Source: Christensenellales bacterium (lineage in GTDB: Bacteria; Bacillota; Clostridia; Christensenellales; MGBC116941). Taken from it: 64,000 nucleotides of DNA. The DNA lies in assembly GCA_050945795.1 (NCBI GenBank), contig JBMNTP010000002.1, forward strand, positions 22,188-86,187. The letters run 5' to 3'. A model generated the notes under the pieces. It was not told where the DNA came from, made no database searches, and saw only the letters and a program-made list of their open reading frames with translations. A program made the position numbers and the translations under genes. How positions within the stretch are numbered: position 1 is the stretch's first letter; the number at the start of each line of letters is the position of its first letter. Below, in pieces: positions 1 through 62,443 of this stretch.

Positions 1-2266
1 GACATGTCTCTACGCAGATGCCGCAGCCTGTGCAATCCAGCGTAGAAATGGCTAGCGCATAATGGCGATCAGAATAGCCGGTTGCCGCAACGCAGTCAAA
101 TCCTGATGGAGCGGCCTGTCGCTGAGCCTCATCAAGCAGCAGCGGACGAATCACCGCATGAGGGCATACAAATGCGCATTGATTGCACTGTATACAGTTT
201 TCCGGTATCCACCGAGGCGTCTCAATAGCTATGCCCCGCTTTTCCCACTGGGTGATGCCGGTAGGGTGAGTCCCATCCTCGCGGCCATTAAAAGCGCTTA
301 CAGGAATCAAATCACCCTGCTGCCTGTTCATAGGCTCAATGATTTTCTCTACAAATTCCGGCAGCTTCATCTGTGGCGCAGCTGCGTCCTCGGCGTTTTG
401 CCAGGATTTTGGATAACTTATTTTCTTTATGGATTGGCTGCCCTGGCGTAATGCCTCAAAGTTCATCTCAACAACTTTTAGGCCCTGTTTACCATAAGCT
501 TTTTCCACTTCATCCTCAAGTAGACGAATAGCTTCTTCCATGGGCAAAATACCGACAAGCTTGAAAAAGGCAGCTTGCATAATCATGTTAATTCTGCCGC
601 CAAGCCCGATCTGCCGGGCAATTTCTACAGCGTTTATAGTATAAAAGTCAACTTCATTTTCCGCTATAGATCGCTTAAGCACGGCGGGCAGGCGCTCTTC
701 TAATTCCGCTTCTTTCCATAAACAATTCAATAAGAATTTGCCACGCTTTTTAATGCCCTGCAAAAGGTCATATCTTCCGACATACGCCTGATTGTGGCAT
801 GCTATATAGTCAGCTTTTGTGACGGGATATGGAGATTGTATCGGCGAGTCGCCAAAGCGAAGATGCGAAACTGTCAAGCCCCCGGACTTCTTTGAATCAT
901 ATGCGAAATATGCCTGCGCATACATGTCGGTGTTACCGCCAATAATTTTTATAGCCGATTTGTTGGCGCTTACAGTGCCATCAGAGCCCAGCCCCCAAAA
1001 CTTGCAGGCTGTAACGCCAGAAGGCGTGGAATCAATCCGCATTGGATACGCCGGCAGCGATGTATGCGTCACGTCATCAACAATGCCGACGGTAAAACCA
1101 TTCCTTGGTGTTTCTTGCTTAAGGTTTTCAAAAACGGCCGCCGCATCCTCTGGATAAAAGTCTTTTGAAGCCAATCCATAACGTCCGCCTACTATAACCG
1201 GCCGCGTTTCCCTTTCGTAGAACGCATTACGCACATCTAAATAGAGCGGCTCTCCTATAGCTCCCGGCTCCTTTGTCCGGTCTAGCACCGCAATCTTTTT
1301 CACCGTTTGAGGAAGCGCGCCCAGGAAATGCTCTGCCGAAAACGGGCGATACAGATGCACCTCTAAAACACCCGCCTTTTCTCCTATGGCGTTTAGGTAA
1401 TCAACTGTTTCGCGTATAGTTTCGCAAGCCGATCCCATCGCTATAACAACATGCTCGGCCGCCTCATGCCCATGATAATTAAAAAGACCGTAGTTCCGTC
1501 CGGTAATGGCGTTTATTTTTTCCATTGCCGCAACAACCGCCGTGGGAACGTCCAGATAAAATTTGTTGGTCGCCTCGCGCATTTGGAAAAACACATCGGG
1601 GTTTTGAGTAGTTCCTCTTAAAACCGGATTATCAGGATTAAGCGCCCGCGCCCTAAATTCATCAACCGCTTTATGGTTTATCAAAGCAGCTAAGTCATCA
1701 TAGTCTAGAACATCAATCTTTTGCATCTCATGCGAGGTTCTAAAACCATCGAAAAAGTGCAGGAAGGGTATACGGGATTCAATGGCGCTCAAATGCGCAA
1801 CCGCCCCTAAATCCATGCACTGCTGCACACTACTGGACGCCAATAGCGCGAAGCCTGTTTGCCTTGTGGACATCACATCCTGATGGTCTCCAAAAATGCT
1901 TAGCGCGTTAGAGGCAAGCGAGCGCGCGCTAACGTGAAATACACAGGGTAAAAGCTCACCGGCAATTTTGTACATATTCGGTATCATAAGCAAAAGCCCC
2001 TGCGATGCCGTATAGGTGGTTGCCAACGCCCCGCCCTGCAACACGCCGTGCAGAGTGCCGGCCGCTCCGCCTTCCGACTGCATAACCTTCACCCTAACCG
2101 GTTGCCCGAATAAATTCTTTTTATCTTGCGCAGCCCACTCGTCCACAGATTCGGCCATTTGCGAAGATGGCGTAATTGGGTAAATAGCTGCCACGTCGGT
2201 GAAAGCATAGGAAACATATGCCGCCGCCATATTACCATCCATCGTCTGTCGCTGTGTCTTTTTCAA
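1..2266 (-). CDS. nifJ: pyruvate:ferredoxin (flavodoxin) oxidoreductase, single-chain type; 3' part runs off the window start
   Basis: Not in the ORF track because the stop lies outside the window. Manual translation from TTG 2266 (GAGG upstream) gives MKKTQRQTMDGNMAAAYVSYAFTDVAAIYPITPSSQMAE..., with FFDGFRTSHE, FWGLGSDGTVSANK, YDSKKSGG and 4Fe-4S motifs CIQCNQCAFICP and CTGCGICVETC. Confidence 0.95.
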   Translation of the reverse strand, partial: MKKTQRQTMDGNMAAAYVSYAFTDVAAIYPITPSSQMAESVDEWAAQDKKNLFGQPVRVKVMQSEGGAAGTLHGVLQGGALATTYTASQGLLLMIPNMYKIAGELLPCVFHVSARSLASNALSIFGDHQDVMSTRQTGFALLASSSVQQCMDLGAVAHLSAIESRIPFLHFFDGFRTSHEMQKIDVLDYDDLAALINHKAVDEFRARALNPDNPVLRGTTQNPDVFFQMREATNKFYLDVPTAVVAAMEKINAITGRNYGLFNYHGHEAAEHVVIAMGSACETIRETVDYLNAIGEKAGVLEVHLYRPFSAEHFLGALPQTVKKIAVLDRTKEPGAIGEPLYLDVRNAFYERETRPVIVGGRYGLASKDFYPEDAAAVFENLKQETPRNGFTVGIVDDVTHTSLPAYPMRIDSTPSGVTACKFWGLGSDGTVSANKSAIKIIGGNTDMYAQAYFAYDSKKSGGLTVSHLRFGDSPIQSPYPVTKADYIACHNQAYVGRYDLLQGIKKRGKFLLNCLWKEAELEERLPAVLKRSIAENEVDFYTINAVEIARQIGLGGRINMIMQAAFFKLVGILPMEEAIRLLEDEVEKAYGKQGLKVVEMNFEALRQGSQSIKKISYPKSWQNAEDAAAPQMKLPEFVEKIIEPMNRQQGDLIPVSAFNGREDGTHPTGITQWEKRGIAIETPRWIPENCIQCNQCAFVCPHAVIRPLLLDEAQRQAAPSGFDCVAATGYSDRHYALAISTLDCTGCGICVETC

Positions 2267-2900
2267 AGCTTCTCAACCTCATTTCTATTTCTCTTTTCAA
2301 TGTCCAAAACAATCTTGCCACGATACCGCCGGCGCTCATGGCTTTCACTAAAGCGCCTCCTTTTTGATGTCCACGCACATATGACGAATGCGCTCTCCCT
2401 AACACAATAAGAAGATAGAATGCCGATAAAGCCCGTCAATCGAGCCACTTTCTTTTATAAAAAATCTTTACTTTAGTTTTTGTCCTCTATAAATATACAA
2501 AAACAGTTTTGTGAATATATTAAATGAATAGTATTTTCTAAATCTTAAATACCCAGCCGAATATCGAGCTTTTCAATAGTTTTACTTACTCCATGAGCAT
2601 GATAAACTGTTATTCACATTAATTCAAGCCGTCTATTACTTCTCTATAATCATATTATCTTTGTTTTATATAAATCAATCCATAAGTCGTATTGGTATAT
2701 ACTCCGGCTCTGACTCTACCGGCAGTTATGAATTTAATTGGTGTATGAAGTGTTTAAGTTTAAATTATTGAAGGCTATAGAGTATCTTAGTTGCATATGA
2801 TTAGCCGGTATCGATCTTTAATACCAGATCTAAGGCGTTTGTCTTTAAAGTAAAAGTGCGTACGGAGAACTTTAAAAGCCTAACAAAATCAAATAATAAA

Positions 2901-2938
2901 GCAGGAGGGGGATAATGGAAGTCCCATAAGCCCCCTGC
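2901..2938 (-). terminator. probable intrinsic terminator downstream of the aldo/keto reductase
   Basis: Minus strand GCAGGGGG...CCCCCTCCTGC imperfect stem followed by TTTATTATTT, about 40 nt after the stop codon. Confidence 0.55.
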
Positions 2939-2979
2939 TCCGCTTCATTTTATCAGTTATTACGCTTGATCACCCGGCT

Positions 2980-3969
2980 TCATTGCGGCTGTTCAAGGTT
3001 TTCAATATCGCGGCGCATCTTTTCCACATCCGCCGACTCCAAAAGTATGCCTCCGCCCTTTACGTTTGCTAGTACATGCTCCGGCTTTCTGGCTCCGCAT
3101 AGCACGTTGAGTTTATCGCTCTGCGCGGCGGTCCAGGCAATGACAAGGCTTACGGTGTCGCATTCGTATTTATCCAAAAGCGGCTGCCAGCCTTCTAGCA
3201 TAGAGATGACTTTTTCACGCAAATCGCTTTGGTACCATTTTATTTTATTCCGTATATTTCCTTCCGGCACAACATAATCCCTTGTCAATCTCCCCGTCAA
3301 TAATCCCTGCTCAAGCGGCGAGTATGCCTGTAGCGTAATGCCGTGTTTTTCACATAGCGGCAGCAGCTCCTTTTCGACATCTCTTGTAAGCATGGAATAC
3401 TTCTGTTGTATCAGCGCGATATCGCCGTATTTGAGATACTCCTCCACTTGCTCCCCGGTAACATTTGAGACGCCAATGGCTCGGATTTTGCCTTCTTTTT
3501 TCAATTGGAGAAGCTCCTCCATGGTTTCCGAAATAGGCGTCAGAAACGGCGGCTGCGATTGCCAATGGGTGATAAAAATATCTATGTAGTCGGTGCCGAG
3601 GTTGCGAAGGCTATCCTCCGCCCCTTTTCGTACAGCCTGTTTAGATAGATTCCTGTTAATCTTTCTGCCATCTCTCTCCAGGAAAGGCGTGCCTTCCTCG
3701 TCAAAAACAAGACCGCATTTGGTAGCAACAAGAATATCCTGCCGTTTTCTTCCCTTTATCGCTTGCCCTACCACCCTCTCACTATGCCCAAAACCATAGG
3801 CGGGTGCGGTATCGATTAGGTTGATGCCATGTTCAAGCCCCTCGTGTATGGCGCGGATGGAAAGTCCGTCGTCTGATTTTCCCCATGCCTCGTCTCCGCC
3901 TACCGCCCATGTTCCTAAAGCAATCACAGACGCTTGAATACCACTATTGCCGATTTCTCTAAAAAGCAT
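2980..3969 (-). CDS. aldo/keto reductase, YdjG-like
   Basis: LGTWAVGG, IDTAPAYGFGHSE, ATKCG, THWQSQPPFLTPI, YSPLEQGLLTG. ATG 3969 has a GGAGG RBS; the ORF-track start at 4023 is too early. Confidence 0.92.
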   Translation of the reverse strand: MLFREIGNSGIQASVIALGTWAVGGDEAWGKSDDGLSIRAIHEGLEHGINLIDTAPAYGFGHSERVVGQAIKGRKRQDILVATKCGLVFDEEGTPFLERDGRKINRNLSKQAVRKGAEDSLRNLGTDYIDIFITHWQSQPPFLTPISETMEELLQLKKEGKIRAIGVSNVTGEQVEEYLKYGDIALIQQKYSMLTRDVEKELLPLCEKHGITLQAYSPLEQGLLTGRLTRDYVVPEGNIRNKIKWYQSDLREKVISMLEGWQPLLDKYECDTVSLVIAWTAAQSDKLNVLCGARKPEHVLANVKGGGILLESADVEKMRRDIENLEQPQ

Positions 3970-52853: not shown

Positions 52854-52924
52854 TTAAAAATGATAGATAACAACAGAGCCAATATATGATAATATATTCT
52901 TATGATTACACAGGAGGAATTGCA

Positions 52925-54334
52925 TTGTCGTTTGTTAAATTTTCGGACAGCGTTTGCATGTTCGATGTAACTCCGCTGGAAAATCTATACATTGAGGAAT
53001 ACATGCGCCGCGCGCCGGGCGACTTTGTCAAGGTGTATATATACGGGCTTATGCATTGCTATCATGCCCGCGAAGCCACGACAAGGACGTTTGCGCACGC
53101 GCTTTCGCTAGAGGAAAACGAGGTGCTAAACGCCTTTAACTACTGGGAGCGCCAAGGGCTTATACGCCGTAGCGGCAACAGCTATGAATATATGCCGGCA
53201 AAGGCGGTAATAGAGCTTGACCGCGACACCGCCTCGGTGCTTTATAAATACAAAGATTTTAACAACCGCCTTCAAGAGCTGCTGCCCGGCCGCCTGCTGC
53301 TGCAAAACGATTTCCAACGCGCGTACGATTGGATAGAAATATACAATCTTGAGCCGGACGCGGTGCTCGTACTCATTTCATGGTGCGTAAGCAGAAAAGG
53401 CCCTAAGATATCTTTCGCGTATATCGATAAAGTTGCGAAGGACTGGGCGTCGCTCGGTATAATAACGCTGGAGCGAGCGGAAGAACATATAAGGCGCGAC
53501 GAGGCGCTGCGCTCCGCCGTAGGCGGCATATTGGCGCATATAGGCATAAAGCGCGCGCCTACTGTTGACGAACATAAGCTTTATTCTAAATGGACATCTG
53601 AGTGGGGATTCACGCGCGAAGCGGTAACCGCCGCCTGCCTCGATATGAGCCGGACGCGCAATCCCAATATGGCGTATCTTGATAAGGTGCTTGAAAGCTA
53701 TCGGGCGCAGGGGATTCTAACCGCCGAAGACATAACGGCGGCGCAAAGCGGCAAGGCCGACCTTAACCGCAGCGTAGGCGAAATGCTTTATAATCTTGCT
53801 ATAAAAGGAGCGCCCGCCCCCGCCCATATAGAGATGTACAAGCGCTGGAGCGAGGAATGGGGCTTTGAGCATAAATCGATAATACACGCCTGCAAGCACG
53901 CGGCGCTCGAGGGCAATCCCTCCCCCGCCTATGTTGAAGCCGAGCTTTGGGCGCTTAAAACAGACGGCATAACAACTCTCGCGCAGGTTAAAGCATATTA
54001 TGAGGAAAGCCGCGAAACCGATCACGAATTACGTGCTGTTTTTAACTGCGCGGGCATAAAGCGCAGCCCGTCGGCTACAGATAGGAAATGGTACGCACGG
54101 GCGACGAGTGAATACGGCATGAGCTCGGAACTTATATGTCATGCCGCGTCTTTGGCACAGGAAGCGCGCAATAAAACGGCCTTTATACAAAAAGTGCTGG
54201 ATGAGTGGCATAAAAACGGCGTAAAAACGCCGGACGAGGCCAGGGCGAGAAAACCCAAGCACAGTCAAAGCGGCACGAAATACGATATGCACGACTATTC
54301 CGATGTTGCCGATACACTATACAATAATTATTGA
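52925..54334 (+). CDS. DnaD-domain replication protein with repeated DnaD/DnaB_2 domains
   Basis: N-terminal ENLYIEEYM..APGDFVKVY; repeated YIDKVAKDW, YLDKVLESY, FIQKVLDEW motifs. TTG 52925 follows AGGAGG. Confidence 0.85.
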   Translation: MSFVKFSDSVCMFDVTPLENLYIEEYMRRAPGDFVKVYIYGLMHCYHAREATTRTFAHALSLEENEVLNAFNYWERQGLIRRSGNSYEYMPAKAVIELDRDTASVLYKYKDFNNRLQELLPGRLLLQNDFQRAYDWIEIYNLEPDAVLVLISWCVSRKGPKISFAYIDKVAKDWASLGIITLERAEEHIRRDEALRSAVGGILAHIGIKRAPTVDEHKLYSKWTSEWGFTREAVTAACLDMSRTRNPNMAYLDKVLESYRAQGILTAEDITAAQSGKADLNRSVGEMLYNLAIKGAPAPAHIEMYKRWSEEWGFEHKSIIHACKHAALEGNPSPAYVEAELWALKTDGITTLAQVKAYYEESRETDHELRAVFNCAGIKRSPSATDRKWYARATSEYGMSSELICHAASLAQEARNKTAFIQKVLDEWHKNGVKTPDEARARKPKHSQSGTKYDMHDYSDVADTLYNNY

Positions 54335-55281
54335 GGAACCGATTTATGTCTGTCGAACAAAACATACTTAGAGAATATGAGCGGCTGCGTCTTAAAAACG
54401 AGCTGGAGCTTGAGGAAAGGCTGGCTAAAGTGTCTTGCCTGCCCGGCGTATCCAAAATTCAGCGGCGGTTGGGCAAGGAATACTCCGCCTTTTTCGCCTG
54501 CCGCCCCGGTGCCGCCGAACGCGATGACGCTCTTAAGCGCATAGCTTCGCTAAACGATCAAATAAAGGCGGCACTTGAAGCGTCAGGGCTTACCCGCGAT
54601 TATCTTGAGCCGCAATACCATTGTAAAACATGCCGCGATACCGGCTTTTTAGAAAACAGCCGTCGCTGCCGCTGCTTTGAAAAGAAAATTGCCGCTTATT
54701 ACGCTAAAGCATGGGGCATGGCGGATACCGGCGCAAGCTTTTCAAGCTTCGATCTTTCGGTATTCAAGGATGCGGAGCACTTAGAGCATATAAAAAGGCT
54801 GTTGCCGGTTTGCAAAAAATATGCCTCCGACTTCCCTGCCACAAAAAAGCGCAATATGCTTTTTATAGGCAAGGCGGGGCTTGGAAAAACGTATATGATG
54901 GAAAGCGTATGCCGCGAGGTTTCCAGCCGCGGCCACGGCGTAATATTTATAACCGCCTACCGGCTTATAGAGATAATAATGCAGTCGGGCTTTGGCGATG
55001 AGCGCGCCACCGCCGTTTCAGAGCTTATTTCCTGCCCGCTTTTAGCCATAGACGACCTGGGCAGCGAGCCTATGTATAACAATATGACTGTCGAAATTCT
55101 TTTCAACATATTAAATGAGCGTATGACGCGCCGCCGGCATACACTAATATGTACAAACCTCGTTTTAGAGCGCATACAGGAGCGCTATGGCGATAGAATA
55201 GCCTCCCGGCTTTTTGATACCGGCAGCACAATAATATCGCTTTTTAAAGGGCGTGACCTTCGGCTTTCCCACCACTTTTAA
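54331..55281 (+). CDS. dnaC: DnaC/IstB-like AAA+ helicase loader
   Basis: Zn motif CKTCRDTG...CRC, Walker A GKAGLGKT, IDDLGSE, NER, RIASRL; overlaps the dnaD-like gene. Confidence 0.85.
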   Translation: MRNRFMSVEQNILREYERLRLKNELELEERLAKVSCLPGVSKIQRRLGKEYSAFFACRPGAAERDDALKRIASLNDQIKAALEASGLTRDYLEPQYHCKTCRDTGFLENSRRCRCFEKKIAAYYAKAWGMADTGASFSSFDLSVFKDAEHLEHIKRLLPVCKKYASDFPATKKRNMLFIGKAGLGKTYMMESVCREVSSRGHGVIFITAYRLIEIIMQSGFGDERATAVSELISCPLLAIDDLGSEPMYNNMTVEILFNILNERMTRRRHTLICTNLVLERIQERYGDRIASRLFDTGSTIISLFKGRDLRLSHHF

Positions 55282-55301
55282 AGCCGGCAATCAGAAAGTG
55301 C

Positions 55302-55330
55302 TTGTATGGCGCGGCGGCGTGTGTTATAAT
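55302..55330 (+). promoter_or_regulatory. sigma-A promoter of the aromatic amino-acid operon
   Basis: TTGTAT-17 bp-TATAAT with TG extension. Confidence 0.8.
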
Positions 55331-55359
55331 CCATGTATTATTAACGAAAGGCAAAGGAT

Positions 55360-55491
55360 ATGGAACAGCTTCTGGCGTTGACATTCGTATTCGTGTATTT
55401 TAGCTTTAGCTTCCTCTTTATGGGCTACGGCTATTTTAAGTACTCGAAAATCGAATCGGCGCATAAGCGATACCGTATTATGGAAATATAA
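55360..55491 (+). CDS. Phe/Tyr-rich attenuator leader peptide (43 aa)
   Basis: MEQLLALTFVFVYFSFSFLFMGYGYFKYSKIESAHKRYRIMEI*: 7 Phe + 5 Tyr, with 11 aromatic codons among codons 9-28. AAAGG upstream. Lies between the promoter and the terminator. Confidence 0.78.
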   Translation: MEQLLALTFVFVYFSFSFLFMGYGYFKYSKIESAHKRYRIMEI

Positions 55492-55546
55492 ACGTAGAAC
55501 CCTGTTTTAACGGTTACAACGGATGCTTATGCGGCATCCGTTTTTT
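55460..55546 (+). terminator. attenuator with antiterminator/terminator pair upstream of aroF
   Basis: Terminator AACGGATGC-TTATGCG-GCATCCGTT-TTTT (55518-55546). CGCATAAGC (55460-55468) is the exact reverse complement of GCTTATGCG (55525-55533), and CCGT (55473-55476) can pair with ACGG (55519-55522). Confidence 0.8.
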
Positions 55547-55578
55547 ATATTTGATTTAAAGTTAAGGAGCGAATTTAA

Positions 55579-56595
55579 ATGATAGTAGTTATGAAAGGCG
55601 GCTCGCCCAAGGGCGAGACGGAGAATGTCGTTAAAGAACTGGAGGGATTGGGAATGCAGGTGCAAATGAATGACGGCATAGGCTGTATGGTGCTTGGCGT
55701 TATAGGCGATACGATATCCATAGACAAGGATAAAATAAGCATGATGCCGGGCGTAGACCGTATTATGCCGGTTAGTGAGCCGTTCAAAAAAGCCAACCGC
55801 AAAGTCCATCCCGGCGATACAATTATAAGGGTTGGTAATGTTACGGTAGGCGGCAAAAAGCTTACCGTTATGGCGGGGCCGTGTTCGGTTGAAAGCAAAG
55901 ATCAGATAGGAGCCGTTGCTATGGCGGTAAAAGACGCCGGCGCTAAAATGCTGCGCGGCGGAGCCTACAAGCCAAGAACATCGCCTTACGCTTTCCAAGG
56001 CCTTGAAAAGCAGGGGCTTGACATGCTGCTTATGGCACGAGAGCTTACCGGCCTTCCCATAGTTACAGAAATAATGTCGCCGCGCCATGTTGAGATGTTT
56101 GAAATGGTTGTAGACGTAATACAGATAGGCGCACGCAATATGCAAAATTTCGATTTGCTAAAAGAAGTTGGGCGCACCAAAAAGCCGGTGCTTTTAAAGC
56201 GCGGCCTGTCTTCAACAATAGAGGAATGGCTTATGTCGGCGGAATACATACTCAACATGGGCAACCCCAATGTAATACTATGCGAGCGCGGCATACGCAC
56301 ATTTGAAACATACACCAGAAACACACTCGATCTAAGCTCTATACCCGCCGTAAAGCGCATGAGCCACCTTCCCATAATAGTAGACCCCTCCCACGCCTGC
56401 GGCATGTCATGGATGGTCGAAAGCATGGCAATGGCGGCGGTGGCGGCGGGCGCAGACGGACTTTTGATAGAAGTGCATAACGACCCTAAAGGCGCGCTTT
56501 GTGACGGGCCGCAGTCCCTCACTCCTGAGCAGTTCGATTCCCTTATGCAAAAGCTAAGGCAGCTTGCCCCGCTTGTAGGGCGGGAGCTTGATTAA
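55579..56595 (+). CDS. aroF: 3-deoxy-7-phosphoheptulonate (DAHP) synthase with N-terminal regulatory domain
   Basis: AGPCSVE, RGGAYKPRTSPY, QIGARNMQNF, LKRG, CERGIRTFE, DPSH, IEVH..P...LCDG. Confidence 0.96.
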   Translation: MIVVMKGGSPKGETENVVKELEGLGMQVQMNDGIGCMVLGVIGDTISIDKDKISMMPGVDRIMPVSEPFKKANRKVHPGDTIIRVGNVTVGGKKLTVMAGPCSVESKDQIGAVAMAVKDAGAKMLRGGAYKPRTSPYAFQGLEKQGLDMLLMARELTGLPIVTEIMSPRHVEMFEMVVDVIQIGARNMQNFDLLKEVGRTKKPVLLKRGLSSTIEEWLMSAEYILNMGNPNVILCERGIRTFETYTRNTLDLSSIPAVKRMSHLPIIVDPSHACGMSWMVESMAMAAVAAGADGLLIEVHNDPKGALCDGPQSLTPEQFDSLMQKLRQLAPLVGRELD

Positions 56596-56604
56596 GGAGC
56601 AATT

Positions 56605-57450
56605 ATGTTTACCACCGTTATAGTCGGCCTTGGGCTTATGGGCGGATCGTTCGCCATGGCGGCACAAGGCTTTAAAGGCGGCAGGATATGCGCTATTGAT
56701 ACCGATAAACAAGTAATGGCGGCGGCGCTTAAAAGCGGCGTTATTGAAAGCGGCTCATCATCGCCCGATATTATATCCAAAGCCGACCTTGCAATATTAT
56801 GCTTAAATCCCGCCGACACCATTTCGTTTATACAGCGAAACGCCGCGCTTTTTAAGCCGGGAAGCCTTGTTACCGATATATCCGGCGTTAAGCGGGCGAT
56901 ACACCCCGCCATAGCCTTGCTGCCACCGGAAGTAGAGTATGTAGGCTCGCACCCCATGGCGGGACGAGAATGCAGCGGATTTAAAAACGCCCAGAAAGAC
57001 TTATTTAAGGGCGCGAATTATATAATAACTCCGGAAAACGCATCTGATAAAAGCGTATCCCTTATACGCGAGCTGGCCGCCTATATAGGATGCTCAAATA
57101 TAATAACCTCAACCGCCGAAACGCACGACCGCAACATAGCATACACCAGCCAGCTTATGCATGTACTAGCGGCGGCAATATGCTTTGACAGCGACTTAAA
57201 AGCGTCTATTGGGTTTGACGGCAACAGCTTTCGCGACTGTACTCGAGTTGCCAAGCTTGATCCTTTGATGTGGAGCAGCCTTTTTGCTTTAAATGCCGAC
57301 TATTTATCATCGTCGGTAAAAAAGCTCGAGGATTCGCTTGGATATTTGCGGCTGCTTATAGAAGGGCGAAACACGAAGGACATCGAACAGGCGCTTTTAA
57401 AGGCGGTAAAACTAAAGGAGGAATGGCAAAATGCAAAGGATTCACGTTAA
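56605..57450 (+). CDS. tyrA: prephenate dehydrogenase
   Basis: VGLGLMGGS, TDISGVK, SHPMAGRE, HD..IAYTSQL.H, FRDCTRVA. Confidence 0.93.
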   Translation: MFTTVIVGLGLMGGSFAMAAQGFKGGRICAIDTDKQVMAAALKSGVIESGSSSPDIISKADLAILCLNPADTISFIQRNAALFKPGSLVTDISGVKRAIHPAIALLPPEVEYVGSHPMAGRECSGFKNAQKDLFKGANYIITPENASDKSVSLIRELAAYIGCSNIITSTAETHDRNIAYTSQLMHVLAAAICFDSDLKASIGFDGNSFRDCTRVAKLDPLMWSSLFALNADYLSSSVKKLEDSLGYLRLLIEGRNTKDIEQALLKAVKLKEEWQNAKDSR

Positions 57451-58492
57451 CTTAGCCGGCAGCAGCTATGACATACTTATAAAAAGCCGCCTTTTACACG
57501 AAGCCGGCAATAATATACCGCTCCCCCAAGGCAGGAAACTGGCTGTGGTATGCGACAGCAGAGTCGCCGCTCTATACTCTGACGCGGCGCTAAACGCTTT
57601 TGCTGCCGCCGGATACGAAGCATCTTTGGTAATAACTGGCGAAGGCGAAGCTTCAAAGAGCATGGATATGATTATGCGGCTGTATGATAAATTCATAGAG
57701 CTTAATATAAGCCGCGGCGACGGCATCGTCGCACTTGGCGGCGGCACAACCGGCGATTCGGCGGGATTCGCCGCTGCTACATATCTTCGCGGCGTTCCGC
57801 TTTTTATGATACCTACAACGCTGCTTTCACAAGTCGACAGCTCTGTCGGCGGCAAAACTGCTATAAATCTGCCGCAGGGCAAAAACCTTGTAGGCGCTTT
57901 TCATCAGCCTTCCGGCGTTATAATAGACACCTCCCTCCTCTCAACACTGGAACCACGCCAGTTCGCCTCCGGCATGGCAGAGGTAATAAAAACCGCCGCC
58001 ATAGCCGACGCCGAGCTTTTTAGCCAGCTGGAGAGGTTTGATAACACTGCGCTACACCAAAACCTCGATAGAGTTATAGCGCGCTGCTGTGAAATAAAAA
58101 GAGGCTATGTGCAAGACGACGCCTTAGATACCGGCGTGCGTATGCAGCTCAACTTCGGCCATACTCTCGGCCACGCAATAGAGGCGGCGGCGGGCTACGG
58201 CGAAATAACGCATGGAGAAGGCGTGGCTATAGGCATGTACGCCGCCGCGCGGTTTGGAGAAAGCGAAGGCATAACGCCGCTGGGCAGCGCCGAGCGCATA
58301 AAGGCTGTGCTGCAAAAAAACAATCTGCCGTATAAAGCGCCGCACCTTGAAGGCGTGCTGTCGGCGCTTAAAAAGGATAAAAAAGCCGGCGGCGGCGCTG
58401 TAAAGCTGGTGCTGCTTGAAAGTATTGGTCGGACCACAACGCTTGAAGTATCGCTTGATAGAGCTGCGCTACTTTGGGAGGCGGTAAAATGA
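57431..58492 (+). CDS. aroB: 3-dehydroquinate synthase
   Basis: GEASK, LGGGTTGD, PTTLLSQVDSSVGGKTAIN, KNLVGAFHQP, LNFGHTLGHAIE, HGEGVAIG. Confidence 0.96.
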   Translation: MQRIHVNLAGSSYDILIKSRLLHEAGNNIPLPQGRKLAVVCDSRVAALYSDAALNAFAAAGYEASLVITGEGEASKSMDMIMRLYDKFIELNISRGDGIVALGGGTTGDSAGFAAATYLRGVPLFMIPTTLLSQVDSSVGGKTAINLPQGKNLVGAFHQPSGVIIDTSLLSTLEPRQFASGMAEVIKTAAIADAELFSQLERFDNTALHQNLDRVIARCCEIKRGYVQDDALDTGVRMQLNFGHTLGHAIEAAAGYGEITHGEGVAIGMYAAARFGESEGITPLGSAERIKAVLQKNNLPYKAPHLEGVLSALKKDKKAGGGAVKLVLLESIGRTTTLEVSLDRAALLWEAVK

Positions 58493-59745
58493 GCATTATA
58501 ATACCTCCCGCCACTTTAAGCGGTGCGATAAAAATACAGCCTTCAAAAAGCATGACGCACCGCGCCGCTATATGCGCAGCGCTAGCGGGAAAAGGAGCAG
58601 CCGTTATAAACGCCGGCCGCTCGGAAGACACTGCCGCTACGCTCGGTGCGCTGGCCTCCCTCGGTATAGCATCTTTTAATCAAAAAGGTAATGCGCTTTA
58701 CGTATCGGAGCCAAAGCCGGGCAGTCAGGGCATAGCCGACTGCGGCGAGTCCGGCTCAACGCTGCGGTTTTTAATCCCGATAGCTCTTTTAAACGGCGGC
58801 GGCGTATTTTCAGGACGCGGCAGGCTTATGCAGCGCCCGCTCGACGTTTACCGCGATATATTCACACCTATGGGTGTTACATGGCAGCAGAAAAAAAACC
58901 ACTTAAGCATAAGCGGCAAACTTTCCCCCGGCGAATACCGGCTGCCCGGAAATGTAAGCTCGCAGTTTGTATCGGGTCTGCTGTTCGCGCTGCCGCTTAC
59001 AGCTTCCGGCTCTGTTATATCGCTTAGCGCAACTGTGGAATCGCGCGGCTATATAGATATGACGCTTGAAGCGATGTCACGCTTTGGCGTTTGGGCAGGC
59101 TGGCTGGACCAACGCACAATTGAAATACCCGGAAATCAAAGCTATAAGCCGGCCAAAATGACGGTGGAAGGCGACTACTCTCACGCCGCCTTTTTCCTAT
59201 GCGCCGGAGCTATGGGCGGAGATATAGAATGCCTCGGCCTCTCTGGCGATACCTCGCAGGGCGACAGCCGCGTTATAGAAATAATACGCTCTATGGGCGG
59301 CGACTGCGGCATAAGCGAAGATGTTGTATACTCTCGCGGCCGCGTATCGCGCGGCGCTACAATAGATGTTTCTCAAATACCCGACCTTGTGCCGGCGTTG
59401 TCGGTACTGGCCTGTGCGGCAAACGGCGTTACGAGGCTTGAAAATGCGGCGCGGCTGCGTATAAAGGAGAGCGACAGGCTTAGCGCTATGGCTGCGGGGC
59501 TGTCTAATCTTGGCGCGGATATTACAGAAGGCGAAGACTTTCTTGAAATACGCGGCAACGGAAAACTAAAAGGCGGCAGCTGCTCGGCCTGGAACGATCA
59601 TCGCATAGCCATGTCGCTAACTACGGCGGCGGCGATATGCGAAGGCGATATAATACTTGATGGTCATGAATCGGTGGCTAAATCGGCGCCGGAATTTTAT
59701 AATGAATATAAAAGCCTCGGAGGTAAAGCATATGAGCGCGAGTAG
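58489..59745 (+). CDS. aroA: 3-phosphoshikimate 1-carboxyvinyltransferase (EPSP synthase)
   Basis: PSKSMTHRA, CGESGSTLRF, SSQFVSGLL, EGDYS, RLRIKESDR, DHRIAM. Confidence 0.96.
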   Translation: MSIIIPPATLSGAIKIQPSKSMTHRAAICAALAGKGAAVINAGRSEDTAATLGALASLGIASFNQKGNALYVSEPKPGSQGIADCGESGSTLRFLIPIALLNGGGVFSGRGRLMQRPLDVYRDIFTPMGVTWQQKKNHLSISGKLSPGEYRLPGNVSSQFVSGLLFALPLTASGSVISLSATVESRGYIDMTLEAMSRFGVWAGWLDQRTIEIPGNQSYKPAKMTVEGDYSHAAFFLCAGAMGGDIECLGLSGDTSQGDSRVIEIIRSMGGDCGISEDVVYSRGRVSRGATIDVSQIPDLVPALSVLACAANGVTRLENAARLRIKESDRLSAMAAGLSNLGADITEGEDFLEIRGNGKLKGGSCSAWNDHRIAMSLTTAAAICEGDIILDGHESVAKSAPEFYNEYKSLGGKAYERE

Positions 59746-60802
59746 AGGAAGAAGCCTTCGCCTGACTATATTTGGCGAATCGCACGGATCGGCGATAGGA
59801 GCGGTGCTTGACGGCGTTCCGGCGGGAACGGTAATAGATATGGACAGCATAAGATTTGAAATGTCACGCAGGGCGTCGTCTCTTAGCATGTCTACGCCGC
59901 GTCGCGAGCCGGATATCCCCGAGATACTAAGCGGCGTACTTAACGGCCGCGCTACCGGAGCGCCTATAGCCGCCATAATCAAAAACACAGACACAAGGAG
60001 CGTTGATTACGCCGCCTTAAAAAACCTGCCCCGCCCCGGACACGCTGATTATACAGCGCATGTAAAATACTCCGGCTTTAACGACAGGCGCGGCGGCGGG
60101 CATTTTTCCGGCCGTCTTACCGCGCCGCTGGTTTTTGCCGGAGCCATAGCGCGCGCAATATTAAGCGGATTTGGCATAAGCGTTATATCTCATATATCCG
60201 AAATAGGCGGCATAAAGGACACCCCGTTTGACGCCGTAGCGCCAGCGCTGCCCGAAGGCTTTTACCAGCGCCGCTTGCCGGTTATAGATGAAACAGCCGG
60301 CCTTGACATGGCTAACGCCGTAGCCAAAGCCTCGACCGATGGCGATTCATTAGGCGGCATAGTTGAATGTGCGGCGGTTGGGCTTATCCCAGGGCTAGGC
60401 GAGCCGTTTTTCGACTCGGTTGAAAGCGTATTGTCGGCTGCGCTTTTTTCGATACCCGCCATAAAAGGCATAGAATTTGGCGCCGGCTTTGGCATGGCAA
60501 AAATGACAGGCTCCACCGCCAACGACGCTTTTATAATAAAAGACGGCGATATAGCCACCGCCACAAACAATAACGGCGGCATAAACGGAGGCATTACAAA
60601 CGGAATGCCGCTTATATTCCGCTGCGCCATAAAGCCTACGCCGTCTATATCTTCAGAGCAGCAAACTGTAAATCTTGAAACAATGCAAAAACAAACCATA
60701 TCAATATCCGGTCGCCACGACGCCTGTATAGTACCGCGCGCGCTGGCGGCAATAGAAGCGGCGACGGCGCTGTGCCTTGGCGATATGCTGCTATGGAGGT
60801 GA
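59732..60802 (+). CDS. aroC: chorismate synthase
   Basis: FGESHG, PRPGHAD, GGGHFSGR, GDSLGG, GGINGGITNG, KPTPSI, GRHD.CI. Confidence 0.96.
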   Translation: MSASRGRSLRLTIFGESHGSAIGAVLDGVPAGTVIDMDSIRFEMSRRASSLSMSTPRREPDIPEILSGVLNGRATGAPIAAIIKNTDTRSVDYAALKNLPRPGHADYTAHVKYSGFNDRRGGGHFSGRLTAPLVFAGAIARAILSGFGISVISHISEIGGIKDTPFDAVAPALPEGFYQRRLPVIDETAGLDMANAVAKASTDGDSLGGIVECAAVGLIPGLGEPFFDSVESVLSAALFSIPAIKGIEFGAGFGMAKMTGSTANDAFIIKDGDIATATNNNGGINGGITNGMPLIFRCAIKPTPSISSEQQTVNLETMQKQTISISGRHDACIVPRALAAIEAATALCLGDMLLWR

Positions 60803-60807
60803 ACGGG

Positions 60808-61935
60808 TTGAACGAACTTGACAAGCTTAGAAATAAGATAGATGAAATCGACTCTTGCCTGCTTGAGCTTTTTGAAAAGCGCATGGCGGTGTCGCGAAGC
60901 ATAGGCGAATATAAGCGCGAGCGCTCTTTGCCGGTGCTTGATGAAAATAGAGAAAAGCAGGTTATACAAAACCGGCTTGATAAAGTGCAAGATGAAAAGC
61001 TTAAGCCCGCCGCACGGGAGTTTTTTACTTCGCTTATGCGGCTTAGCAAAAATGCGCAGTATCCCCCGCCTAAAAAGCAGCCTTCCCCTTCATCCGCTGC
61101 CAGCGGCGTCGGCGTGGCTTATCAGGGTATACCCGGCTGTTACGGTGAGGAGGCGGCGCTGGCGTATTTCAAAAATGATATGACAGGTATACCTCTTAAC
61201 GATTTTGAGGCGGTTTTTCGCTCTGTAAGCGAGGGTGGCGCGCGATACGGCGTGCTGCCGCTGGAGAATTCATCCACCGGCTCCATAGCGCGCGTATACG
61301 ACCTTTTGATGCAATACGGCTGCGTCATCACCGGCGAATATTATCTGCCGGTAAATCATTGCCTTTTATGTGTGCCGGGCGCGGCGATAGAAGATATTGA
61401 GCGCATATATTCGCATGAGCAGGGGCTTTTGCAATGCTCGGCATTTTTAGCCGCATACCCAAATTGGCACCAGCTGCCGTATCATAACACTGCCGTCAGC
61501 GCCCGCCATGTCGCCGAACTTAATGACCGTTCAAACGCGGCTATAGCCGGCCGCCGCGCCGCCGAGGCATACGGTCTTGATATACTGGCAGAAGGCATAC
61601 AGACTTATGGCGGCAATTATACCCGCTTTATAGTCGTATCTAACAGCGCTAAAAACACCGGCCTTGAAAACAAAATAAGCCTGTTTTTCAGCCTTAAGCA
61701 TCAAAGCGGCACGCTGCATAGCGCGCTGTCGCATTTTGCTAATACCCGACTTAACCTTACAAAAGTTGAATCGCGCCCCGCCCCATATAAAAGCTGGGAG
61801 TATGTTTTCTTTGTCGACTTTGAAGGCAATCTATCGGGCAACGATGTTAAAGAAGCGCTTAAGGCGCTGGAAAAAGACTGTGTAGAGCTTAGAGTGCTCG
61901 GTAACTATATAGCGGGGAATAAAATAAATGAATAA
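60808..61935 (+). CDS. pheA: chorismate mutase / prephenate dehydratase (P-protein)
   Basis: AroQ-type chorismate mutase N-terminus (LRNKIDEID...R...K...RE), then YQG.PG.Y.E.A, PLENSSTG, NYTRF and ACT motif ESRP. TTG 60808 follows GGAGG. Confidence 0.94.
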   Translation: MNELDKLRNKIDEIDSCLLELFEKRMAVSRSIGEYKRERSLPVLDENREKQVIQNRLDKVQDEKLKPAAREFFTSLMRLSKNAQYPPPKKQPSPSSAASGVGVAYQGIPGCYGEEAALAYFKNDMTGIPLNDFEAVFRSVSEGGARYGVLPLENSSTGSIARVYDLLMQYGCVITGEYYLPVNHCLLCVPGAAIEDIERIYSHEQGLLQCSAFLAAYPNWHQLPYHNTAVSARHVAELNDRSNAAIAGRRAAEAYGLDILAEGIQTYGGNYTRFIVVSNSAKNTGLENKISLFFSLKHQSGTLHSALSHFANTRLNLTKVESRPAPYKSWEYVFFVDFEGNLSGNDVKEALKALEKDCVELRVLGNYIAGNKINE

Positions 61936-62443
61936 CATATACCTTACAGGACTGCCCGGCTGCGGCAAAACTACGATAGGCCACATAATATCGGATATTA
62001 CCAAAGCGCCTTTTATAGACTTAGATACCTTAATAGAAAAAAAATCGGGTATGCGCATTTATGATATATTCGAAAATTATAGCGAGATAGCGTTTCGCGA
62101 TATGGAAACCGAAGCCCTTTTTTCAACGGCATCGCTTGAAAATACAGTTATAGCAACAGGCGGCGGCGCTGTACTGCGCAGCCAAAACACCGATTTTATG
62201 AAACAGCACGGCAGCATTGTATTTATAGACCGTCCGCCAGAACAAATACTCACCGATATACAAACAGGCCCCCGTCCGCTTCTTAAAGGCGGACAGGAAG
62301 CCTTTTTAAAGCTAAGCGTTGAGCGCAGGGATATATATATATCCACCGCCTCCGCCGTTGTGCCAAACACCGGCAGCGCAAACGACTCCGCCCTTTATAT
62401 CATCAATCTTTTCCCAGACCTTTTAAAATCGCCTCGTGCATAA
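61928..62443 (+). CDS. aroK: shikimate kinase
   Basis: GLPGCGKTT, DLD..IE, FRDME, IATGGG, RPLL. Confidence 0.95.
   Translation: MNNIYLTGLPGCGKTTIGHIISDITKAPFIDLDTLIEKKSGMRIYDIFENYSEIAFRDMETEALFSTASLENTVIATGGGAVLRSQNTDFMKQHGSIVFIDRPPEQILTDIQTGPRPLLKGGQEAFLKLSVERRDIYISTASAVVPNTGSANDSALYIINLFPDLLKSPRA

What the first reader, a model, noticed from the sequence alone, without database searches (positions are those of the whole stretch)
55302..55578. Phe/Tyr leader-peptide attenuator controlling the aromatic amino-acid operon in a Clostridia-type genome
Seen: a promoter (55302-55330) is followed by a 43-codon ORF missing from the ORF track, with 7 Phe, 5 Tyr and no Trp; 11 of them fall in codons 9-28. 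An intrinsic terminator (55518-55546) follows, before aroF. A segment in the 3' end of the leader ORF (CGCATAAGC..CCGT, 55460-55476) is complementary to the terminator's 5' arm and loop, giving a mutually exclusive antiterminator. The downstream operon includes pheA and tyrA, matching the control codons. No T-box motif is visible. Known: this is the logic of enterobacterial pheL/trpL attenuation, whereas Firmicutes usually use T-boxes or TRAP. Inference: stalling at Phe/Tyr codons frees the antiterminator and full translation occludes it, making a dual Phe+Tyr sensor.
Basis: partly seen in the sequence, partly recalled or inferred. Interest (0 to 1): 0.82.

Follow-up and report, generated by a model that had tools for sequence, protein, structure and literature searches.

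The report
Phe/Tyr leader-peptide attenuator before aroF
A short upstream reading frame packed with phenylalanine and tyrosine codons, followed by a terminator and a competing hairpin, very probably lets this gut Clostridia-type bacterium switch on its aromatic amino-acid operon when those two amino acids run short; the mechanism is a known kind, found here in a lineage where it had not been described.

Summary
A 43-codon ORF (55360-55491, 7 Phe, 5 Tyr, 0 Trp) is followed by an intrinsic terminator (55518-55542 plus T-run). Bases 55460-55476 inside the ORF's 3' end pair with the terminator's 5' arm and loop. Rfam gives no T-box or any other family.

In 27 of 30 aroF loci of the same order (Christensenellales by record titles), a short aromatic-rich ORF precedes aroF, and all 27 are followed by a strong terminator. 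Reverse strands and shuffles rarely show such ORFs. ilvB upstream regions of the same genomes show no aromatic-rich ORFs but do show Ile/Leu/Val-rich ones. The peptides share only their aromatic run, which argues against a stand-alone membrane protein.

Weaknesses:
- There are no expression data.
- There are no close relatives for covariation.
- In most relatives the antiterminator does not beat the terminator at equilibrium.

The kind is already in print: the aroR leader before aroF in Corynebacterium glutamicum, the uORFC-13-1 motif before aroF in Acholeplasma, and His leaders in Firmicutes. This is therefore a new member of a known kind. My confidence in the mechanism is about 0.85, and interest is moderate.

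The parts
55302..55330 (+). Candidate sigma-70-type promoter: TTGTAT, 17 nt, TGnTATAAT (extended -10)
   Evidence: Read. The consensus scan did not list it, because the -35 matches 3 of 6. By eye only.
55346..55358 (+). Weak Shine-Dalgarno-like purine tract (GAAAGG 8 nt and AAAGGA 1 nt before the ATG)
   Evidence: The duplex with a generic anti-SD is -3.5 kcal/mol, weaker than in 24 of the 27 leader ORFs scored in that call (<= -4; own leader included in the 27).
55360..55491 (+). Leader ORF, 43 codons plus TAA
55384..55443 (+). Control-codon run: 7 Phe and 4 Tyr in codons 9-28
   Evidence: A 40-nt stretch (55398-55437) is 88% identical to the leader of the same-family genome G001.
55357..55387 (+). 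Region 1: pairs with 55452-55479 in the untranslated RNA and so sequesters the antiterminator strand
   Evidence: MFE helices. The whole leader folds at -62.6 kcal/mol, z = -3.98 against 200 shuffles.
55401..55433 (+). Hairpin inside the aromatic run: TAGCTTTAGC (Phe-Ser-Phe-Ser codons) pairs with GCTACGGCTA (Gly-Tyr-Gly-Tyr codons). Possible RNA-polymerase pause element (inference).
   Evidence: Against codon shuffles, own z = -1.46 (p 0.08); 13 of 27 loci have z < -1.64.
55460..55476 (+). Region 2: antiterminator 5' strand (codons 34-39 of the leader)
   Evidence: The antiterminator hairpin 55455-55534 folds at -21.6 kcal/mol.
55518..55552 (+). Intrinsic terminator: stem 55518-55527/55533-55542, then TTTTATATTT. 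Bases 55519-55533 are shared with the antiterminator.
   Evidence: -13.8 to -14.4 kcal/mol
55579..62443 (+). Controlled operon: aroF (55579-56595), tyrA (56605-57450), aroB (57431-58492), aroA (58474-59745), aroC (59657-60802), pheA (60772-61935), aroK (61928-62443)
   Evidence: Pfam and NCBIfam. The AAGGAG Shine-Dalgarno of aroF is at 55564-55569.

Best explanation
This is a ribosome-mediated (leader-peptide) transcription attenuator of the aroF-tyrA-aroBAC-pheA-aroK operon.

How it works:
- Transcription starts near 55337, and a ribosome translates the 43-codon leader.
- When Phe-tRNA and Tyr-tRNA are plentiful, the ribosome runs through codons 30-43 and covers bases 55460-55476. The terminator (55518-55542 plus U-run) then forms, and transcription stops before aroF.
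- When charged Phe- or Tyr-tRNA is scarce, the ribosome stalls in the aromatic run (codons 9-28). Bases 55460-55476 stay free and pair with 55519-55533 as soon as these are made. The terminator cannot form, and the operon is transcribed.
- With no translation at all, region 1 (55357-55387) holds region 2 and termination is the default.

Shown from sequence: the ORF, the codon bias, the terminator, the alternative pairings, their positions, and their recurrence in relatives.
Inferred: translation of the ORF, stalling, the kinetic order of folding, and the response to both amino acids.
For: Anatomy in the window:
- The ORF, terminator and antiterminator are as stated.
- The antiterminator duplex (-17.3 kcal/mol) was matched by 0 of 200 shuffles.
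- I folded only the RNA 3' of a stalled ribosome. The antiterminator is the minimum-energy structure when the A site is at codons 7-11 or 19-29 (Phe9, Phe11, Phe20, Tyr23, Tyr25, Phe26, Tyr28). The terminator wins at every position from codon 30 to the stop.

Recurrence in relatives:
- I took the 30 best-scoring aroF loci, out of 48 of 61 genomes with a match.
- 27 of these 30 loci have a short ORF with >=5 aromatic residues in 12 within 700 nt upstream.
- Within 350 nt, >=7 of 12 is reached in 19 of 30 loci on the forward strand, in 2 of 30 on the reverse strand, and in 1.2% of 600 dinucleotide shuffles.
- All 27 are followed, 14-67 nt after the stop, by a hairpin plus T-run of -12.2 to -29.1 kcal/mol. 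The 3 loci without such an ORF have no terminator or only a weak one.
- In 18 of 27 loci, the best pairing to the terminator's 5' arm beats >=95% of shuffles. In 14 of those 18, its 3' end lies within 12 nt of the leader's stop codon.
- 24 of 27 leaders have a Shine-Dalgarno-like site.

Specificity:
- aroF upstream regions: aromatic-rich ORFs (>=6 of 12) in 24 of 30; Ile/Leu/Val >=10 of 12 in 0 of 30.
- ilvB upstream regions of the same genome set: aromatic-rich in 0 of 29; Ile/Leu/Val >=10 of 12 in 8 of 29.

Closest relative: the same-family genome G001 keeps the aromatic run at the DNA level, 88% over 40 nt, 205-241 nt before its aroF.

Other mechanisms: no Rfam family in the window or in 20 relatives' loci.
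Against: - No expression or 3'-end data exist; no RNA run was listed.
- The Shine-Dalgarno of the window's own leader is weak (-3.5 kcal/mol).
- The promoter is by eye only.
- With the A site at codons 12-18, the terminator is favoured by 0.4-2.4 kcal/mol. The energy gaps are small throughout.
- Across relatives, an equilibrium fold with the complete terminator present lets the antiterminator win at >=50% of stall positions in only 6 of 27 loci, and at any position in 8 of 27. A co-transcriptional snapshot test was weak: 66% of the 5'-arm bases were sequestered against 45% in shuffles, and it was individually significant in 3 of 27 loci. In most relatives the switch must therefore be kinetic, which I cannot test.
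- 9 of 27 loci have no antiterminator better than shuffles.
- No close relatives exist for covariation: the best aroF identity is 70% in genomes and 68% in metagenomes. In the one dense subgroup the pairing is invariant, so it is uninformative.
- The window's own peptide, taken alone, looks like a transmembrane helix with a basic tail.
Confidence: 0.85

Rival explanations
1. The ORF encodes a stand-alone small membrane protein, and the hairpin at 55518-55542 is simply its terminator. aroF would then have its own promoter, or be read through constitutively.
For: The window's peptide has a 23-residue hydrophobic stretch followed by a Lys/Arg-rich tail. Hydrophobic small proteins are common.
Against: Relatives share only the aromatic run. 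Their lengths are 18-44 residues, and several cannot span a membrane, for example the 19-residue MKNYANQNFYYFYFFFNKQ and the polar N-terminus in G001. The ORF is always placed before aroF (27 of 30 loci) and never before ilvB (0 of 29). The antiterminator overlaps the ORF's 3' end. Pfam finds no family.
Confidence: 0.04
2. This is a terminator/antiterminator switch operated by something other than the ribosome (a protein, a small RNA or a metabolite), and the ORF is incidental.
For: The alternative structures exist regardless of translation. The window's own Shine-Dalgarno is weak. The genome encodes a TRAP homologue.
Against: Aromatic-codon enrichment is frame-specific, far above reverse-strand and shuffle controls, and operon-specific. 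No RNA sequence is conserved across the order apart from the codon run, and no Rfam family matches. The leader has only 4 (G/U)AG triplets and no chain of 3 or more, so it is not a TRAP site.
Confidence: 0.08
3. It is a T-box riboswitch or another curated RNA family that the first reader missed.
For: T-boxes are the usual amino-acid sensors in Firmicutes, and this genome has 8 T-box matches, 4 of them over the cut-off.
Against: cmscan of 54800-56000 against all 4227 Rfam families at E<=10 gives only two chance-level hits. None of the 8 T-box matches lies at aroF. Twenty relatives' loci gave 0 gathering-level hits.
Confidence: 0.01

Closest known systems
aroR leader peptide before aroF in Corynebacterium glutamicum (Neshat et al. 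2014, known to me only through passages of the review PMC11802643)
   Same: A short leader ORF with Phe and Tyr codons sits before the operon that starts with the DAHP synthase gene. Ribosome stalling raises transcription.
   Different: The phylum differs (Actinobacteria). aroR has a short Phe-Tyr-Phe motif, against 11 aromatic codons in 20 here. According to the review, Tyr supply had no effect there. No sequence comparison was made, because I held no aroR sequence.
pheL-pheA and trpL attenuators of Escherichia coli (established knowledge; PMC3082878 seen as listing and abstract only)
   Same: The logic is the same: control codons for the end product, regions 1-4, and a terminator against an antiterminator chosen by ribosome position.
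   Different: pheL is about 15 codons with tandem Phe codons only and controls pheA alone. Here the leader has 43 codons, Phe and Tyr are interleaved with Ser/Gly/Val, and the whole common pathway plus both branches is controlled. No Rfam leader family matched.
uORFC-13-1 motif before aroF in Acholeplasma (Brewer et al. 2021, PMC8632094, passages read)
   Same: Bioinformatic prediction of a uORF with Phe codon(s) directly before an intrinsic terminator and aroF.
   Different: It was found only in Acholeplasma and environmental sequences (24 representatives), with 'at least one' Phe codon.
Two uORF candidates at shikimate genes with Phe and Tyr (Stav et al. 2019, PMC6429828, Fig. 6b legend read)
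   Same: Short ORFs with Phe and Tyr, associated with shikimate-pathway genes.
   Different: The organism and sequences are given only in figures and supplements, which I could not see. Overlap with the present lineage cannot be excluded.
His-leader attenuators in Firmicutes (PMC9413887, passages; PMC2965389, passages)
   Same: Classical leader-peptide attenuation in Firmicutes lineages that lack the usual T-box at that operon.
   Different: They sense a different amino acid, control a different operon, and occur in other lineages (B. cereus group, Peptostreptococcaceae, Erysipelotrichales).
T-box riboswitch (Rfam RF00230)
   Same: A terminator/antiterminator decision reports tRNA charging.
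   Different: A T-box senses uncharged tRNA directly and needs no ORF. It was tested here and not met.

Membership tests
Ribosome-mediated (leader-peptide) transcription attenuator | A short translatable ORF lies between the promoter and the first structural gene | tested here: met
   43-codon ATG ORF at 55360-55491 with a weak SD-like tract. Translation itself is not shown.
Ribosome-mediated (leader-peptide) transcription attenuator | The ORF is enriched in codons for the amino acid(s) made by the operon | tested here: met
   11 Phe/Tyr codons in codons 9-28, and the operon holds pheA and tyrA. Enrichment is operon-specific in relatives.
Ribosome-mediated (leader-peptide) transcription attenuator | An intrinsic terminator lies between the leader ORF and the first gene | tested here: met
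   55518-55542 plus a T-run, 36 nt before aroF. Present in 27 of 27 leader-bearing loci.
Ribosome-mediated (leader-peptide) transcription attenuator | A mutually exclusive antiterminator whose 5' strand is covered by a ribosome finishing the ORF and is free when the ribosome stalls at the control codons | tested here: met
   In the window. In relatives: the duplex test supports it in 18 of 27 loci, but equilibrium and snapshot folds support it only weakly (6 of 27 and 3 of 27).
Ribosome-mediated (leader-peptide) transcription attenuator | Read-through depends on leader translation and on charged tRNA supply | not testable with these tools
   No RNA run was listed. Reporter assays or Term-seq are needed.
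T-box riboswitch (RF00230) | Match to the T-box covariance model (specifier loop, T-box sequence) | tested here: not met
   No T-box hit in 54800-56000 at E<=10. The 8 genome hits lie elsewhere.
TRAP-regulated leader | A series of about 9-11 (G/U)AG triplets spaced by 2-3 nt (number recalled from B. subtilis work) | tested here: not met
   Only 4 triplets and no chain of 3 or more in 55337-55578, although a TRAP gene exists in the genome.
Curated Rfam leader families (enterobacterial Phe leader; Lactococcus leu/phe leader; names recalled, not returned by any search) | Match to the family's covariance model | tested here: not met
   cmscan against all 4227 families listed none of them. I did not verify that these families are in the release searched.
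aroR (C. glutamicum) / uORFC-13-1 (Acholeplasma) | Sequence or structure homology to those elements | not tested
Only functional likeness is claimed.

The most novel reading that the evidence does not exclude
The window's element belongs to an order-wide, fast-evolving family of aromatic leader-peptide attenuators in Christensenellales. Similar elements also lie before aroF homologues in gut Treponema.

In this family the Phe/Tyr codons are interleaved with Ser (AGC) and Gly (GGC) codons, so the control-codon run is itself the two arms of a hairpin (UAGCUUUAGC with GCUACGGCUA). One stretch would thus encode both the sensor peptide and a pause or anti-antiterminator RNA element.

Together with the tandem Ile/Leu/Val leaders before ilvBNC in the same genome, this would make leader-peptide attenuation a main amino-acid sensing mode in a Clostridia order, beside T-box and TRAP.
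Probability: 0.35. Interest if true: 0.55.

Novelty: new member of a known kind. Interest (0 to 1): 0.4.

Why it matters
Firmicutes are usually said to sense amino-acid supply through T-boxes, TRAP or repressors, with classical leader-peptide attenuation treated as a proteobacterial and actinobacterial habit.

Here one small gut Clostridia-type genome appears to use all three RNA-level systems:
- T-boxes
- a TRAP gene
- leader peptides before the aromatic operon and the branched-chain operon

The aromatic leader recurs across most families of the order that I sampled. This has three practical consequences:
- It gives genome annotators a rule for a recurring short ORF that gene callers may miss or name a hypothetical protein.
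- It predicts how aromatic amino-acid synthesis is controlled in a largely uncultured group of gut bacteria.
- It offers many natural variants of one simple attenuator for studying how such switches evolve.

It does not open a new mechanism.

Tried and rejected
- Rfam: an evalue-mode scan of the window and a gathering-mode scan of 20 relatives' loci gave nothing usable.
- Nucleotide search of 40 relatives: only one genome (G001) gave a match, in two short pieces, so no nucleotide alignment across the order was possible.
- Closer relatives for covariation: the genome contigs and metagenome-contig scans with aroF gave nothing above 70% and 68% protein identity. Covariation for the window's own helices could therefore not be tested.
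- Alignment of 27 leaders of a Ca. Ventricola-like subgroup (A1): the candidate antiterminator and the terminator are nearly invariant, so there is no covariation signal either way.
- G002 (same family): its aroF is directly preceded by coding sequence (it looks like the end of chorismate synthase, by eye), so that locus is uninformative. I did not look further upstream.
- Equilibrium fold test across 27 loci and co-transcriptional snapshot test: both gave only weak support for the antiterminator in relatives. Results are reported in the Against line.
- Genome-wide scan for other leader peptides: no convincing Trp, His, Thr or Leu leaders. A second Phe/Tyr-rich ORF on contig C4 precedes a 227-aa ORF of unknown family and was not pursued.
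- The look-up of sequencing runs, kind rna: no RNA holder was listed.
- I did not run the search for homologous proteins, the protein-atlas search, structure prediction or complex prediction on the 43-aa peptide. The comparative data already answered the membrane-protein rival.
- Literature: seven searches found no paper describing an aromatic leader peptide in Christensenellales, other Clostridia or Treponema. The library lacks most subscription journals, and supplements were closed. The supplements of PMC6429828 and PMC8632094 may hold related elements.

Full report
**What is in the window**

Downstream of a dnaD-like gene and a dnaI/IstB-like ATPase gene (52886-55281) lies a 297-nt gap before aroF. 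The gap contains the following, in order.

- Promoter-like site: TTGTAT, 17 nt, TGnTATAAT at 55302-55330. I read this. The consensus scan did not list it, because the -35 matches only 3 of 6.
- A weak purine tract.
- A 43-codon ORF at 55360-55491. It has 7 Phe, 5 Tyr and no Trp, and 11 of the 12 aromatic codons fall in codons 9-28.
- A small hairpin.
- An intrinsic terminator at 55518-55542, followed by TTTTATATTT.
- The AAGGAG Shine-Dalgarno and the ATG of aroF at 55579.

The operon that follows is aroF, tyrA, aroB, aroA, aroC, pheA (chorismate mutase + prephenate dehydratase + ACT) and aroK. aroE lies on the other strand.

**Alternative structures**

Bases 55460-55468 are the exact reverse complement of 55525-55533. 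With two further A-U pairs and CCGU/ACGG, the strand 55460-55476 can take the whole 5' arm and loop of the terminator.
- The duplex energy is -17.3 kcal/mol, reached by 0 of 200 shuffles.
- As a hairpin, 55455-55534 folds at -21.6 kcal/mol, against -14.4 for the terminator.

In the untranslated RNA, the leader folds into one long imperfect hairpin:
- 55357-55387 pairs with 55452-55479.
- The apex is a 9-pair helix between the Phe-Ser-Phe-Ser codons and the Gly-Tyr-Gly-Tyr codons.

In that state the antiterminator strand is held and the terminator forms. The total is -62.6 kcal/mol, z = -3.98. This is the classical four-region layout.

**Ribosome positions**

I folded only the RNA 3' of a ribosome whose A site sits at a given codon.
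- The antiterminator is the minimum-energy fold for A-site codons 7-11 and 19-29. These include 4 Phe and 3 Tyr control codons.
- The terminator is the minimum-energy fold for codons 12-18, by 0.4-2.4 kcal/mol.
- The terminator wins at every position from codon 30 to the stop, because the ribosome then covers region 2.

The energy gaps are small, so the decision must be largely kinetic: the antiterminator partner is transcribed before the terminator's 3' arm. That part is inference.

**Comparison with relatives**

The genome (1.97 Mb, 57 contigs) belongs to a sparsely sampled family. Record titles of the nearest aroF genes place it among Christensenellales.

aroF is present in 48 of 61 genomes of the relatives sample, and the 30 best loci were fetched. 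Results on these loci:
- 27 of 30 have a short aromatic-rich ORF upstream.
- Within 350 nt, >=7 aromatic residues in 12 occur in 19 of 30 loci on the coding strand, in 2 of 30 on the reverse strand, and in 1.2% of dinucleotide shuffles.
- All 27 are followed, 14-67 nt after the stop, by a hairpin plus T-run of -12.2 to -29.1 kcal/mol. The three loci without the ORF have no terminator or a weak one.
- The best pairing to the terminator's 5' arm beats >=95% of shuffles in 18 of 27 loci. In 14 of those 18 it ends within 12 nt of the leader's stop codon. This is the position at which a terminating ribosome would mask it.
- 24 of 27 leaders have a Shine-Dalgarno-like site.

The peptides share nothing but the aromatic run. 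Refined lengths are 18-44 residues, and many are polar outside the run. That speaks against a conserved membrane protein.

The same-family genome G001 keeps the run at the DNA level: 88% over 40 nt, 205-241 nt before its aroF.

**Specificity control**

I fetched ilvB loci from the same set of genomes and scanned them in the same way.
- ilvB upstream regions: aromatic-rich ORFs in 0 of 29; Ile/Leu/Val-rich ORFs (>=10 of 12) in 8 of 29.
- aroF upstream regions: aromatic-rich (>=6 of 12) in 24 of 30; Ile/Leu/Val >=10 of 12 in 0 of 30.

The codon bias therefore follows the operon's product.

**Results that do not help the reading**

- With the complete terminator present, equilibrium folds let the antiterminator win at half or more of the stall positions in only 6 of 27 loci, the window among them. 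Shuffled controls give 1%.
- A snapshot fold before the 3' arm is made shows 66% of the 5'-arm bases sequestered, against 45% in shuffles, and is individually significant in 3 of 27 loci.
- Nine of 27 loci show no antiterminator better than chance.
- No covariation test was possible. No close relatives were found, and the one dense subgroup is invariant in the helices.
- The window's own Shine-Dalgarno is weak.
- No RNA data could be found; see Tried and rejected.

**Other mechanisms**

- No T-box or any other Rfam family matches the leader or 20 relatives' loci.
- The genome does have 8 T-box matches elsewhere and a TRAP gene.
- The aroF leader has only 4 (G/U)AG triplets and no chain of three, so it is not a TRAP target.

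**What is known**

The mechanism is the textbook one of trpL and pheL. An aromatic leader before aroF is also in print:
- aroR (Phe-Tyr-Phe) in Corynebacterium glutamicum. It was responsive to Phe but not to Tyr, according to the review passage I read (PMC11802643). I did not see the original paper.
- uORFC-13-1 before aroF in Acholeplasma (PMC8632094, passages).
- Two Phe/Tyr uORF candidates at shikimate genes (PMC6429828, figure legend). The details are in supplements I could not open.

Leader peptides in Firmicutes have been reported for histidine genes (PMC2965389; PMC9413887). Seven searches found nothing on Christensenellales, other Clostridia or Treponema for the aromatic operon.

**Verdict**

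I put it at about 0.85.

It is a new member of a known kind, not a new kind. The claim of dual Phe and Tyr sensing is plausible, because both codon types sit at antiterminator-favouring positions, but it is untested and is contradicted by the one experimental precedent.

Interest is moderate. The wider pattern is worth a comparative-genomics note and a reporter experiment. That pattern is:
- an order-wide aromatic leader
- tandem branched-chain leaders in the same genome
- a hairpin built from the control codons themselves (13 of 27 loci against codon shuffles)
- similar leaders before aroF in Treponema (13 of 19 loci)

Noticed in passing
Own genome contig C12, minus strand; locus L195 4149..3839 (leaders), 3772..2108 (ilvB), 2101..1580 (ilvN), 1578..586 (ilvC): Two tandem Ile/Leu/Val-rich leader ORFs, both containing the residues MTNL near their start. 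Each is followed by a strong terminator (-20.3 and -21.5 kcal/mol), and they precede ilvB-ilvN-ilvC (Pfam-confirmed). Tandem leader-peptide attenuators look unusual to me.
   Followed up: partly
Loci L198-L227 (ilvB of relatives): Ile/Leu/Val-rich short ORFs (>=9 of 12) precede ilvB in 9 of 29 loci of the order, the own genome included. In the remaining loci I saw no such leader, and in several of them the best upstream ORF reads like the end of a longer protein, by eye.
   Followed up: partly
Loci L079-L105 (Treponema/Spirochaetaceae records): 13 of 19 scanned spirochaete aroF loci carry a conserved aromatic-rich upstream ORF, for example one ending ...FYFYYYGNSSLVRGA. Some have terminators. 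The aroF proteins are 54-58% identical to the window's, which suggests the gene and its leader may travel together between gut phyla.
   Followed up: partly
Loci L040-L068, L109, L112; alignment A1: 27 species-level genomes related to Ca. Ventricola share a nearly invariant leader, 23-24 residues in 25 of the 27 loci and 35 in two, of the form M..FSF[AV]RFSGY....LAFVRA. It has a GGAGG Shine-Dalgarno, and the stop codon lies inside the candidate antiterminator strand.
   Followed up: partly
Own genome C23:8464-8658 (-) and C20:28776-28816 (+); loci L197, L196: A TRAP (TrpBP, PF02081) gene is present. The only genomic chain of 6 or more (G/U)AG triplets overlaps the Shine-Dalgarno of a 454-aa PLP-dependent (PALP) ORF whose N-terminus looks TrpB-like by eye. 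This is a candidate TRAP translational target.
   Followed up: partly
Own genome, 8 places listed: There are eight T-box matches, 4 of them over the gathering score. The genome therefore combines T-box, TRAP and leader-peptide control. I did not examine the genes they control.
   Followed up: no
window 55579-55780 (aroF residues 1-67): The DAHP synthase carries the N-terminal ferredoxin-like domain (PF18152), and pheA carries an ACT domain. Allosteric feedback probably acts alongside attenuation.
   Followed up: no
window 59657-59760: The listed TTG start of aroC overlaps aroA by 89 nt, and the Pfam match begins at residue 34. The true start is probably further downstream.
   Followed up: no
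Loci L026 and L032: Here the leader and terminator lie 264-308 nt before aroF instead of 20-150 nt. An aromatic-rich ORF also appears on the reverse strand of the last 350 nt. Unexplained.
   Followed up: no
Own genome contig C4, + strand, 261-410: This is the only other Phe/Tyr-rich small ORF (6 of 12) that has a terminator and a downstream gene. The gene is a 227-aa ORF of unknown family with hydrophobic N-terminal segments.
   Followed up: no
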